A DNA stretch of 64,000 bases from the human T2T-CHM13v2.0 reference genome, Homo sapiens. This document shows positions 25,456 through 27,275 of the stretch, piece after piece (positions within the stretch are counted from its first letter, which is position 1; each line of letters begins with the position of its first letter). The stretch lies in assembly GCF_009914755.1 (NCBI RefSeq), contig NC_060927.1; one strand, 5' to 3'. The position numbers were made by a program, and so were the translations under genes. Below the pieces are notes generated by a model that was not told the DNA's origin, ran no database searches, and saw only the letters and a program-made list of their open reading frames with translations.

Positions 25456-25593
25456 CTTTGTCAACTGCAAAGTAATCATTCCGTGGATCTAGTTGAAAGG
25501 TTAAATCCCCCAGGTTATCTTCATCTGTTGCCTGGCATACTCCAATCATTTTCCCAATTGGAATTTCTTCATCCAGTGTGATGTCAACTTTAT
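25456..25593 (-). pseudogene. Cadherin pseudogene exon 7, 3' part: (N)KVDITLDEEIPIGKMIGVCQATDEDNLGDLTFQLDPRNDYFAVDK
   Basis: Open frame with xEE...G...ATDED...YFAVD cadherin pattern; donor AAA G|gtaggt, phase 1. Confidence 0.92.
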
Positions 25594-25610
25594 TGTGCTG
25601 AGTTGAGTTT

Positions 25611-27216
25611 TGTTTGTTTGTTTGTTTTTTAATTATACTTTAAGTTTTAGGGTACATGTGCACAATGTGCAGGTTAGTTACATATGTATACGTGTGCCAT
25701 GTTGGTGTGATGCACCCATTAACTCGTCATTTAACATTAGGTATATCTCCTAATGCTATCCCTCCACCCTCCACCCACCCCAAAAAAGGCCCCGGTGTGT
25801 GATGTTCTCCTTCTTGTGTCCATGTGTTCTCATTGTTCAATTCCCACCTATGAGTGAGAACATGCGCTGTTTGGTTTTTTGTCCTTGCGATAGTTTGCTG
25901 AGAATGATGGTTTCCAGCTTCATCCATGTCCCTACAAAGGACATGAACTCATCATTTTTATGGCTGCATAGTATTCCATGGTATATGTGCCACATTTTCT
26001 TAATCCAGTCTATCATTGTTGGACATTTGGGTTGGTTCCAAGTCTTTGCTATTGTGAATGGTGCCGCAATAAACATACGTGTGCATGTGTCCTTACAGCA
26101 GCATGTTTTATAATCCTTTGGGTATATACCCAGTAATGGGATGGCTGGGACAAATGGTATTTCTAGTTCTAGATCCCTGAGGAATCGCCACACTGACTTC
26201 CACAATGGTTGAACTAGTTTACAGACAGTCCCACCAACAGTGTAAAAGTGTTCCTGTTTCTCCACATCCTCTCCAGCACCTGTTTCCTGACTTTTTAATG
26301 ATTGCCATTCTAACTGGTGTGAGATGGTAACTCATTGTGGTTTTGATTTGCATTTCTCTGGTGGCCAGTGATGATGAGCATTTTTTCATGTGTCTTTTGG
26401 CTGCATAAATGTCTTCTTTTGAGAAATGTATGTTCATGTCCTTCACCCACTTGTTGATGGAGTTGTTTGTATTTTTCTTGTAAATTTGTTTGAGTTCATT
26501 ATAGATTCTGGATATTAGCCCTTTGTCAGATAAGTAGATTGCAAAAATTTTCTCCCATTCTGTAGGTTGCCTGTTCACTCTGATGGTAGTTTCTTTTGCT
26601 GTGCAGAAGCTCTTTAGTTTAATTAGATCCCATTTGTCAATTTTGTCTTTTGTTGCCATTGCTTTTGGTGTTTTAGACATGAAGTCCTTGCCCATGCCTA
26701 TGTCCTGAATGGTAATGCCTAGGTTTTCTTCTAGGGTTTTTATGGTTTTAGGTCTAACATTTAAGTCTTTAATCCATCTTGAATTAATTTTTGTATAAGG
26801 TGTAAGGAAGGGATCCAGTTTCAGCTTTCTACATATGGCTAGCCAGTTTTCCCAGCACCATTTATTAAATAGGGAATCCTTTCCCCATTGCTTGTTTTTC
26901 TCAGGTTTGTCAAAGATCAGATAGTTGTAGATATGCGGCATTATGTCTGAGGGCTCTGTTCTGTTCCATTGATCTATATCTCTGTTTTGGTACCAGTACC
27001 ATGCTGTTTTGGTTACTGTAGCCTTGTAGCATAGTTTGAAGTCAGGTAACGTGATGCCTCCAGCTTCATTCTTTTGGCTTAGGATTGACTTGGCAATGCG
27101 GGCTCTTTTTTGGTTCCATATGGACTTTAAAGTAGTTTTTTTCCAATTCTGTGAAGAAAGTCATTGGTAGCTTGATGGGGATGGCATTGAATCTATAAAT
27201 TACCTTGGGCAGTATG
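25611..27216 (-). mobile_element. 5'-truncated L1PA (1.6 kb) inserted inside cadherin exon 7
   Basis: L1 ORF2 C-terminal fragments (ORFs 26219..26941, 25837..26265) plus 3' UTR and A-tail; 17-bp TSD tgtgc(t/c)gagttgagttt at 25594-25610 and 27217-27233. Confidence 0.96.
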
Positions 27217-27275
27217 TGTGCCGAGTTGAGTTTATGGAAGTCACACTCGAGACATCATTTTCAATATTTAATAAA
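27217..27275 (-). pseudogene. Cadherin pseudogene exon 7, 5' part (before the L1 insertion): (S)[19 protein letters not shown]
   Basis: Acceptor tttttaaacaag|T TTA TTA...; open in phase 2 and in frame with the 3' part once the L1 and one TSD copy are removed. Confidence 0.8.

What the first reader, a model, noticed from the sequence alone, without database searches (positions are those of the whole stretch)
25456..27275. L1PA retrotransposon landed inside coding exon 7: a datable gene-disrupting insertion
Seen: a 17-bp TSD (25594-25610 and 27217-27233, differing by one CpG transition) flanks a 1.6-kb L1PA. Removing it restores one 197-nt open exon, [34 protein letters not shown]...YFAVDK, with correct acceptor and donor phases. 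The L1 is sense to the gene and ends in ATTAAA plus an A-tail, so it could also polyadenylate transcripts prematurely. Inference: its subfamily age brackets when the gene died, and it is a candidate for the original knockout.
Basis: partly seen in the sequence, partly recalled or inferred. Interest (0 to 1): 0.8.

Follow-up and report, generated by a model that had tools for sequence, protein, structure and literature searches.

The report
L1 insertion splitting a dead cadherin exon
A 1.6-kb L1 retrotransposon really does sit inside an old coding exon of the human cadherin pseudogene CDHR18P, but it is one of at least six disabling lesions and probably not the one that first killed the gene.

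Summary
Observation confirmed. A 5'-truncated, minus-strand L1 (25611-27216) with an A-rich tail and ATTAAA is bracketed by a 16/17 target-site duplication. Taking out the L1 and one duplicate restores a 197-nt open exon with AG and GT in the right phases. Mammalian CDHR18 orthologues read straight across the join.

Monkey gene models (Saimiri, Aotus, Pygathrix) also read straight across, so the site is probably empty there. The copy's private divergence is 2.0-2.5%. It falls in the fourth tier of the L1 ladder, L1PA4-like, roughly 13-20 Myr old.

"Original knockout" is neither shown nor excluded. The human gene also has:
- no exon 3 anywhere in the genome
- a TGA in exon 4
- a 1-bp deletion in exon 6
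- an AT donor at exon 12
- a TAA in the last exon

None was shown to predate the L1. Human changes at invariant codons (15 of 196) suggest constraint was lost at about the L1's age or somewhat earlier (ratio about 1.5, interval 0.8-2.6). Point lesions far outnumber exonic L1 hits, so a passenger is likelier. Ape genomes would settle it. Ordinary biology, modest interest.

The parts
27217..27233 (-). Target-site duplication, copy at the 5' end of the L1 (L1 sense: AAACTCAACTCGGCACA). It keeps the CGG (Arg) codon.
   Evidence: 16/17 with the other copy
25631..27216 (-). Body of the 5'-truncated L1: the C-terminal third of ORF2 plus the 3' UTR.
   Evidence: ORF2p residues 841-1147, E 1e-197; 13061 first-look candidates in the genome, best other copies 94-96% identical; NCBI repeat mask 25601-27218 (hub table)
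26219..27160 (-). Longest open stretch of the L1 ORF2 remnant (313 aa). The frame then shifts to 25837-26331.
25611..25630 (-). Degenerate A-rich tail of the L1 (AAAAAACAAACAAACAAACA).
25628..25633 (-). ATTAAA hexamer at the L1 3' end, in the sense of the gene.
   Evidence: read; its use as a poly(A) signal was not tested
25594..25610 (-). Target-site duplication, copy after the A-tail (AAACTCAACTCAGCACA). Its CAG differs from the other copy's CGG by a CpG transition.
27234..27275 (-). 5' part of ancestral CDHR18 exon 7, before the duplicated 17 nt. The acceptor AG is at 27277-27276.
   Evidence: aligned to orthologues
25456..25593 (-). 3' part of ancestral exon 7, after the duplicated 17 nt. 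The donor GTAGGT starts at 25455.
   Evidence: 50 of 53 candidate proteins match at E<=0.01
45895..45897 (-). TGA stop in exon 4 (VIY*AAAND). The Pygathrix, Saimiri and Saguinus models have Arg here.
28061..28167 (-). Exon 6, 107 nt where orthologue proteins require 108. There is a 1-bp deletion in ...AAA GT- GTT GAC... near 28147. The monkey models read FSLVIKVVD intact.
3872..3873 (-). The exon 12 donor reads AT instead of GT (ACCATG|ATAAGT). The annotated terminal exon 3625-4106 runs on through it.
   Evidence: hub gene table
45949..50661 (-). The interval that should hold exon 3 (57 codons + 1 nt). No exon 3 is detectable.
   Evidence: best hit E 0.018, with an internal stop; whole genome: only the chr7 paralogue, 52% identity

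Best explanation
A 5'-truncated L1PA element inserted by target-primed reverse transcription into coding exon 7 of CDHR18. By rank and private divergence it belongs to the fourth tier of the primate L1 ladder, that is, L1PA4-like. The insertion happened on the ape lineage after the split from Old World monkeys, roughly 13-20 Myr ago, in the sense of the gene. It duplicated 17 bp of exon sequence.

Shown:
- the insertion anatomy
- the reality of the exon
- contiguity of the exon in orthologues
- the element's private divergence
- the list of other lesions

Inferred:
- The site is empty in monkeys. This rests on protein models only.
- The subfamily name and the absolute age.
- The insertion most likely landed in a gene that was already released from constraint or already broken. 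On this reading it is a passenger, or at best one of several near-simultaneous lesions, not the founding knockout.
For: Anatomy: TSD 16/17; ORF2p match; tail and ATTAAA. The target is TTCCAT|AAAC in L1 sense, which is GTTT/ATGG on the nicked strand. That resembles the T-rich/A preference of the L1 endonuclease, which I recall and did not test.

Exon: 197 nt and open, with splice sites and phases intact.

Orthologues:
- They read ...SINST(x)HNK... without a break in Saimiri P0002, Aotus P0004, Pygathrix P0003, Lemur P0037 and every full-length mammalian model I aligned.
- A filled site spliced at canonical GT..AG could not give that peptide. This is my reading of the borders.

Age:
- The FastTree terminal branch is 2.5%.
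- Pairwise 'star' private divergence is 2.2% over all sites and 2.0% with CpG columns masked.
- Tier means are 0.47%, 1.44%, 1.66% and 2.8%, and the element sits in the oldest tier.
- Published ages are L1Hs to L1PA5 = 3.1-20.4 Myr (PMC5237266, passages) and 7.6 and 26.8 Myr for the L1PA2 and L1PA6 bounds (PMC4083085, passages).

Other lesions: exon 3 absent, and joining exon 2 directly to exon 4 runs into a stop. There is also a TGA in exon 4, a 1-bp deletion in exon 6, an AT donor at exon 12 and a TAA in exon 18.

Constraint clock, counted at columns strictly invariant in 28 full-length models (26 named non-primate mammals, 2 of unnamed source):
- human: 15 of 196 changed
- Pygathrix: 1 of 75
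- Saimiri: 0 of 65
- Saguinus: 1 of 77
- Aotus: 5 of 127
- Lemur: 0 of 176
- Otolemur: 2 of 179

Neutral decay since the L1 landed (d = 2.2-2.5%) would give about 4.9-5.5% changed codons by my approximation 1-(1-d)^2.25. The observed value is 7.7%, a ratio of about 1.4-1.6.

Prior, from my own knowledge and not from a tool: loss-of-function point mutations, small indels and splice mutations arise orders of magnitude more often per gene than exonic L1 insertions. An L1 falling into about 2.6 kb of already neutral exon sequence over about 20 Myr is uncommon but much less rare.
Against: - The Poisson interval on the clock ratio (15 events, about 0.8-2.6) includes 1, so the L1 could coincide with the loss of constraint.
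- No other lesion was shown to be older than the L1. The TGA and the 1-bp deletion are absent from all monkey models that cover them. Aotus splices exon 12 to exon 13 normally. Exon 3 is present in Saguinus.
- None of the 4 human changes at invariant columns shared with Pygathrix is shared by Pygathrix (0 of 4). There is therefore no sign that constraint was lost before the ape/Old World monkey split, which is the same interval in which the L1 arrived.
- The empty-site calls rest on predicted proteins, not DNA. The Pygathrix model comes from an authors' pipeline that might tolerate non-canonical introns.
- Age caveats: only 40 of 13061 and 40 of 3186 first-look candidates were scored. Copies were chosen for similarity to this element. 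Only 39 of the 58 fetched copies spanned the element well enough to be used. I drew the tiers by eye from the tree.
Confidence: 0.6

Rival explanations
1. Founding lesion: the L1 insertion itself inactivated a still functional CDHR18 in the ape stem or great-ape stem lineage. It did so by splitting a cadherin-repeat exon, and perhaps by terminating transcripts at its own ATTAAA. All other lesions followed.
For: - The L1 is old relative to the decay of the gene. The clock ratio interval of 0.8-2.6 includes 1.
- Only 2 stops and 1 frameshift were found in about 2.4 kb of surviving coding sequence. That fits a short neutral period of about the L1's age.
- The monkeys that appear to lack the L1 keep invariant residues: Pygathrix 1 of 75 changed, Saimiri 0 of 65.
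- None of the scorable human lesions is shared with them.
Against: - The point estimate of the ratio is above 1: 15 changes observed against about 10 expected, P about 0.1 by my Poisson estimate.
- On mutational grounds (recalled rates, not a tool result), an exonic L1 hit is a very rare way to lose a gene compared with point lesions.
- Exon 3 is absent from the human genome and also missing from the Pygathrix and Saimiri models, which substitute intronic sequence for it. If that loss is shared with Pygathrix, it predates the L1.
Confidence: 0.13
2. The insertion is older than inferred and is shared with Old World monkeys. On this reading the Pygathrix model reads across the site only because a homology-guided annotator spliced the L1 out.
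For: - The Pygathrix record is an authors' 'hypothetical protein' with obvious modelling artefacts: intronic read-in before exon 4 and upstream junk exons that carry stops in human.
- Its exon 7 starts at an internal AG, 27 nt inside the exon.
- The tier containing the element could be L1PA5 rather than L1PA4.
Against: - A private divergence of 2.0-2.5% is below what the quoted scale implies for 26.8 Myr or more (L1PA6).
- The peptide SINSTWHNKVDITL is exactly contiguous, with no duplicated NST(x)H.
- Two NCBI models from New World monkeys are contiguous as well.
Confidence: 0.08
3. The repeat pair and the open frame are chance, and there is no real exon here.
For: The 51-residue half-exon alone finds no Pfam family even at E<=1.
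Against: - 50 of 53 candidate proteins match the half-exon at E<=0.01, the best at 5e-23, and nearly all carry PF00028.
- The two halves align without a gap to about 30 full-length orthologues.
- The chance of the TSD is about 1e-5 or less.
Confidence: 0.01

Closest known systems
Canonical LINE-1 (L1PA) target-primed reverse-transcription insertions
   Same: It is 5'-truncated and ends in its own hexamer plus an A-rich tail. It has a 17-bp target-site duplication and a T-rich/A target on the nicked strand. ORF2 is about 93% identical in protein to the solved human ORF2p.
   Different: Nothing unusual in the element itself. The exact subfamily could not be assigned because no RepeatMasker or consensus library was available. 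'L1PA4-like' rests on ladder rank and private divergence.
Human unitary pseudogenes (for example the set of 76 in Zhang et al. 2010, PMC2864566; GULO is named there)
   Same: It is a single-copy gene that is intact in other mammals and disabled in place in human, with no functional copy elsewhere. The genome search finds only paralogues at <=33% identity over long stretches.
   Different: I did not find this locus in the main text of that paper: 'cadherin' occurs 0 times, and neither of the 2 'chr3' entries is at this place. Its supplementary tables were not looked at. Here one of the lesions is a retrotransposon inside an exon, not a point lesion.
Disease-causing de novo L1 insertions into exons (for example factor VIII in haemophilia A; recalled, no call)
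   Same: A sense or antisense L1 lands in a coding exon and destroys it.
   Different: Those are recent, deleterious and not fixed. This one is fixed, millions of years old, and sits in a gene with several other lesions, so causality cannot be read from its presence.
CDHR3, the paralogue whose name most orthologue records borrow ('cadherin-related family member 3-like')
   Same: Cadherin-repeat architecture. Exon 3 of the orthologue finds human chr7 at 52% identity.
   Different: It is a different locus, on chr7 rather than chr3. The orthologues of the window's gene are the records named 'Cadherin related family member 18' or 'Gm281'.

Membership tests
LINE-1 retrotransposon insertion (TPRT) | Homology to L1 ORF2 and 3' UTR | tested here: met
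   ORF2p 841-1147, E 1e-197; thousands of genomic candidates; scored copies 94-96% identical
LINE-1 retrotransposon insertion (TPRT) | Target-site duplication directly flanking the element | tested here: met
   17 nt, 16/17; the borders abut the truncated 5' end and the tail
LINE-1 retrotransposon insertion (TPRT) | 3' poly(A) or A-rich tail after a polyadenylation hexamer | tested here: met
   ATTAAA followed by AAAAAACAAACAAACAAACA
LINE-1 retrotransposon insertion (TPRT) | Endonuclease-type target (T-rich / A) | tested here: met
   TTCCAT|AAAC in L1 sense, i.e. GTTT/ATGG on the nicked strand. The consensus TTTT/AA is recalled, not from a call.
L1PA4 subfamily | Diagnostic positions of the subfamily consensus (RepeatMasker/Dfam assignment) | not testable with these tools
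   No consensus library was available. I built no consensus and used pairwise distances and a tree only.
L1PA4 subfamily | Divergence and age class between L1PA3 and L1PA5 | tested here: inconclusive
   Private divergence 2.0-2.5%; fourth tier of four in a 40-sequence tree. Tiers were drawn by eye. The L1PA3 and L1PA4 ages of 12.5 and 18 Myr are recalled; L1PA5 at 20.4 Myr is.
CDHR18 (cadherin related family member 18) orthologue, coding exon 7 | Contiguous homologous exon in orthologues across the insertion point | tested here: met
CDHR18 (cadherin related family member 18) orthologue, coding exon 7 | Collinear neighbouring exons of the same gene on the same strand | tested here: met
   exons for residues 1-82 and 139-859 of the orthologue lie in order on the minus strand, from window 59194 down to 12181 bases before the window start
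CDHR18 (cadherin related family member 18) orthologue, coding exon 7 | Cadherin domain | tested here: met
   Orthologue P0007: PF00028, E 3.8e-46, 3 stretches. The human 51-residue half-exon alone gives no Pfam hit.
Unitary pseudogene | Disabling lesions in place and no intact copy elsewhere in the genome | tested here: met
   Lesions. Genome search finds only this locus at 72-80% identity and paralogues at <=33% (one short 40% piece). That search used a stricter first look, so weak matches may be missing.
Founding (first) lesion of the pseudogene | Present in every lineage that has any other lesion, and alone in at least one | not testable with these tools
   No ape or monkey genomic DNA was available. 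Protein models of monkeys give only partial, indirect scoring.

The most novel reading that the evidence does not exclude
The L1 is the founding lesion. A single retrotransposition into exon 7 knocked out CDHR18 in the common ancestor of apes or great apes about 15-20 Myr ago. That would make this one of the few fixed human gene losses whose cause and date can both be read from one element.
Probability: 0.13. Interest if true: 0.45.

Novelty: new member of a known kind. Interest (0 to 1): 0.25.

Why it matters
If the L1 were the first lesion, it would give a clean, self-dating example of gene loss by retrotransposition in ape evolution. It would also date the loss of a cadherin that most other mammals keep. 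As it stands it is a well-preserved molecular fossil. It is useful as a phylogenetic marker (filled or empty site in apes) and as an anchor for ordering the half-dozen lesions of CDHR18P, but it shows no new mechanism. The exon map made here also shows two things about the ancestral gene. It extends about 12 kb beyond the annotated 3' end of CDHR18P, and it has lost exon 3 entirely.

Tried and rejected
- Pfam on the 51-residue half-exon gave no family even at E<=1. The piece is too short, so the domain is documented through the orthologues instead.
- Search for exon 3 in 45000-52000 with 30 orthologue peptides: the best hit was at 48789-48742, E 0.018, 16 residues with an internal stop. I judged it chance because the other exons keep 72-92% identity. 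The whole-genome search found only the chr7 paralogue.
- I considered exon 3 loss as an anthropoid-wide lesion that would make the L1 a passenger. I dropped this because the Saguinus model P0052 and the unnamed record P0063 contain exon 3, and because monkey sequences keep invariant residues. A catarrhine-wide loss remains possible: Pygathrix lacks exon 3 in its model, and none of the 52 proteins matching exon 3 is from a catarrhine. That is weak evidence.
- The window-wide count of near-identical 17-mer pairs (329) is dominated by interspersed repeats and says nothing about the TSD.
- Literature: 'CDHR18P/CDHR18' is in 2 papers, both apparently gene-list mentions, seen as search listings only. 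'Gm281' appears in unrelated expression papers (listing only). For Zhang et al. 2010 I searched main-text passages only, not the supplements. I found no description of this insertion in those searches.
- The exon 17 donor, which lies before the window start, has no GT at the expected place (CCA|CATATG). The ancestral boundary is uncertain, so I do not count it as a firm lesion.
- A small exon expected between exons 15 and 16 (about 20 nt, coding for about 6 residues) was not looked for.
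Full report
**What is there.** On the plus strand, 25594-25610 (TGTGCTGAGTTGAGTTT) and 27217-27233 (TGTGCCGAGTTGAGTTT) are a direct repeat, 16 of 17 identical. Between them lies a minus-strand L1.
- The stop-to-stop frame 26219-27160 (313 aa) matches human L1 ORF2p (PDB 8uw3) residues 841-1147 at E 1e-197. By my count of the printed alignment there are about 20 substitutions and one 1-residue gap over 306 positions.
- In L1 sense the element ends ...GTATAATTAAAAAACAAACAAACAAACA and is followed at once by the second repeat copy.
- It therefore has the full signature of target-primed reverse transcription: 5' truncation, an ATTAAA hexamer, a degenerate A-tail and a 17-bp target-site duplication.
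- The target reads TTCCAT|AAAC, which is GTTT/ATGG on the nicked strand. That resembles the known preference of the L1 endonuclease, which I recall and did not test.
- The chance of such a repeat in the right registers is about 1e-5 or less.
- NCBI's repeat mask (25601-27218, hub table) agrees.

**The exon is real.**
- On the minus strand, 27275..27217 translates to [19 protein letters not shown], and 25609..25456 translates to NSTQHNKVDITLDEEIPIGKMIGVCQATDEDNLGDLTFQLDPRNDYFAVDK.
- Taking out the L1 and either repeat copy removes 1623 nt and leaves 197 nt in one open frame.
- The acceptor AG (27277-27276) and the donor GTAGGT (from 25455) are in place. The phases fit the neighbouring exons: exon 6 ends in AG, which with T gives Ser; the final G with exon 8's AG gives Glu.
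- The 51-residue half finds no Pfam family by itself. It does find 50 proteins at E<=0.01 among 53 candidates, nearly all with PF00028, in many mammalian orders. Some of these are named 'Cadherin related family member 18', and a later search shows one named 'Gm281'.
- In an alignment with 28 full-length models, the two human halves abut without a gap.
- A full-length orthologue carries the Cadherin domain at E 3.8e-46.

**The rest of the gene.** tblastn of bat and lemur orthologues against the window plus 20 kb fetched before it finds the exons in order on the minus strand. They cover residues 1-82 and 139-859 and run from window 59194 down to 12181 bases before the window start. The ancestral gene therefore runs about 12 kb past the annotated end of CDHR18P. 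Besides the L1, the human copy has these lesions:
1. No exon 3 (57 codons + 1 nt). Nothing better than E 0.018 appears in 45000-52000, and nothing appears elsewhere in the genome except the chr7 paralogue at 52% identity. Joining exon 2 directly to exon 4 shifts the frame into a stop.
2. A TGA at 45897-45895 where monkeys have Arg.
3. Exon 6 is 107 nt where 108 are needed, a 1-bp deletion near 28147.
4. The exon 12 donor is AT instead of GT at 3873-3872. This fits the annotated last exon running on to 3625.
5. A TAA in the last exon.

A sixth possible lesion is the exon 17 donor, which has no GT at the expected place. Otherwise every exon is open from acceptor to donor.

**Other primates.** No primate DNA was available, only predicted proteins.
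- Saimiri (P0002) and Aotus (P0004), both NCBI models, read ...SINST(Q/R)HNKFDITL... straight across the join. So does Pygathrix (P0003), an authors' model from an Old World monkey, with ...SINSTWHNKVDITL....
- With the L1 present, no canonical GT..AG pair at its borders could give that peptide. This is my reading.
- The site is therefore very probably empty in New World monkeys and probably empty in at least one Old World monkey.
- All the anthropoid models are fragments of 271-416 aa, against about 860 aa in other mammals.
- The Pygathrix and Saimiri models lack exon 3 and substitute intronic sequence for it.
- The Saguinus model P0052 has exon 3, so exon 3 was present in the anthropoid ancestor. 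That model lacks exon 7.
- Among the 52 proteins that match exon 3, the only primates are Lemur and Saguinus. The absence of catarrhines from that list is weak evidence.

**Age of the L1.** I searched the genome with the element and with its 3' UTR. Only 40 of 13061 and 40 of 3186 first-look candidates were scored. Of the 58 other copies fetched, 39 spanned the element well enough to align.
- A FastTree tree shows the usual L1 ladder. The element sits in the oldest of four tiers, with a terminal branch of 2.5%.
- I built no consensus. Its private divergence from pairwise distances is 2.2% over all sites and 2.0% with CpG columns masked.
- Tier means are 0.47%, 1.44%, 1.66% and 2.8%.
- Published ages quoted from Khan et al. 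are 3.1-20.4 Myr for L1Hs to L1PA5 (PMC5237266, passages) and 7.6 and 26.8 Myr as the L1PA2 and L1PA6 bounds (PMC4083085, passages). Ages of 12.5 and 18 Myr for L1PA3 and L1PA4 are recalled.
- The tiers fit L1Hs, L1PA2, L1PA3 and L1PA4(-5) at about 0.15% per Myr. This puts the insertion at roughly 13-20 Myr ago, after the ape/Old World monkey split, in agreement with the empty monkey sites.
- Caveats: I drew the tiers by eye, and the copies were chosen for likeness to the query.

**When did the gene lose constraint?** I counted changes at the 220 columns strictly invariant in the 28 reference models (26 named non-primate mammals, 2 of unnamed source).

| Species | Changed / covered columns |
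|---|---|
| Human | 15 / 196 |
| Pygathrix | 1 / 75 |
| Saimiri | 0 / 65 |
| Saguinus | 1 / 77 |
| Aotus | 5 / 127 |
| Lemur | 0 / 176 |
| Otolemur | 2 / 179 |

- In the 70 columns covered by both human and Pygathrix, human has 4 changes and Pygathrix has 1, and none is shared.
- The excess is therefore on the human lineage after the split from Old World monkeys.
- If the gene had decayed neutrally only since the L1 landed (d = 2.2-2.5%), about 4.9-5.5% of codons should have changed by my approximation. The observed value is 7.7%.
- The neutral period is therefore about 1.4-1.6 times the L1's age, with a Poisson interval of about 0.8-2.6.
- This leans towards loss of constraint before the L1 but does not exclude coincidence.

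- The TGA, the 1-bp deletion and the exon 12 donor lesion are not in the monkey models that cover them.
- Exon 3 is ambiguous.

On the other side, point, indel and splice lesions arise far more often than exonic L1 hits. That is recalled knowledge, not a tool result. An L1 falling into already neutral exons is the commoner route to this picture. I put the passenger reading near 0.6 and the founding-lesion reading near 0.13. The remainder covers an older insertion shared with Old World monkeys and near-simultaneous events.

**Polyadenylation.**
- The annotated transcript NR_197413.1 skips exon 7 entirely (hub table).
- The unnamed protein record P0051 is identical to the human exon 8 (60 of 60). 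It reads exon 7's post-L1 half, then exon 8, then exon 10 in a shifted frame. This suggests that spliced transcripts do use the exon 7 donor downstream of the L1.

**Novelty.** Searches for 'CDHR18P/CDHR18' found 2 papers, seen as listings only. 'Gm281' appeared in listings. Passages of Zhang et al. 2010 did not mention the locus, and its supplements were not seen. None of these gave a description of this insertion. It is a new, tidy instance of a well-known kind of event, not a new mechanism.

Noticed in passing
window 45949-50661 (minus strand): Exon 3 of the ancestral cadherin gene (57 codons + 1 nt) is missing from the human genome altogether. Only the chr7 paralogue matches, at 52% identity. 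Skipping it shifts the frame into a stop.
   Followed up: yes
before the window start: G000:C3:63785819-63797852: Six further coding exons of the ancestral gene (orthologue residues about 560-859, including the transmembrane segment) lie beyond the annotated 3' end of CDHR18P (3625). They are well preserved. The last one carries a TAA, and exon 17 has no GT at the expected donor.
   Followed up: partly
window 3872-3873 and 3625-4106: The exon 12 donor is AT instead of GT. The annotated terminal exon of NR_197413.1 begins at the old exon 12 acceptor (4106) and simply runs on through the dead donor.
   Followed up: partly
window 25451-25549, 22998-23177, 16016-16078 (protein P0051): A 102-residue protein record of unnamed source matches human exon 7's post-L1 half (32 of 33) and exon 8 (60 of 60). 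It then reads exon 10 in a shifted frame, so exon 9 is skipped. It looks like a spliced transcript that passes the L1.
   Followed up: partly
window 25336-25416 (+ strand): An alternative first exon of C3orf49 (hub table) lies 40 bp from the donor end of the cadherin exon, on the opposite strand. The two genes overlap head to body here. The L1 is 5'-truncated, so its antisense promoter cannot be the source.
   Followed up: no
proteins P0002, P0003, P0004, P0052: All anthropoid models of this gene are fragments of 271-416 aa, each broken at different places. Saguinus lacks exon 7. Saimiri and Pygathrix lack exon 3 and stop after exon 8. Aotus has 5 of 127 invariant residues changed. The gene may be decaying independently in several monkey lineages.
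   Followed up: partly
window 43026-43094 (minus strand; protein P0063): The tail of the unnamed record P0063, which carries exons 2-3-4 with exon 3 present, matches a stretch inside human intron 4 at 91% identity (21 of 23). This suggests an alternative exon or read-in there.
   Followed up: no
(hit lists): The named orthologue hits are bats, rodents, a hare, shrews and moles, pangolins, armadillo, tenrec and sengis, tree shrew and marsupials. No carnivore, ungulate or cetacean name appears. This may reflect the word-based candidate selection, or it may mean further losses.
   Followed up: no
window 54374-54569 (minus strand): The N-terminal 'junk' of the Pygathrix model maps to human intron 1 at 87-92% identity, with two stops in human. 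The stretch is conserved enough to be picked as exons by that annotation.
   Followed up: no
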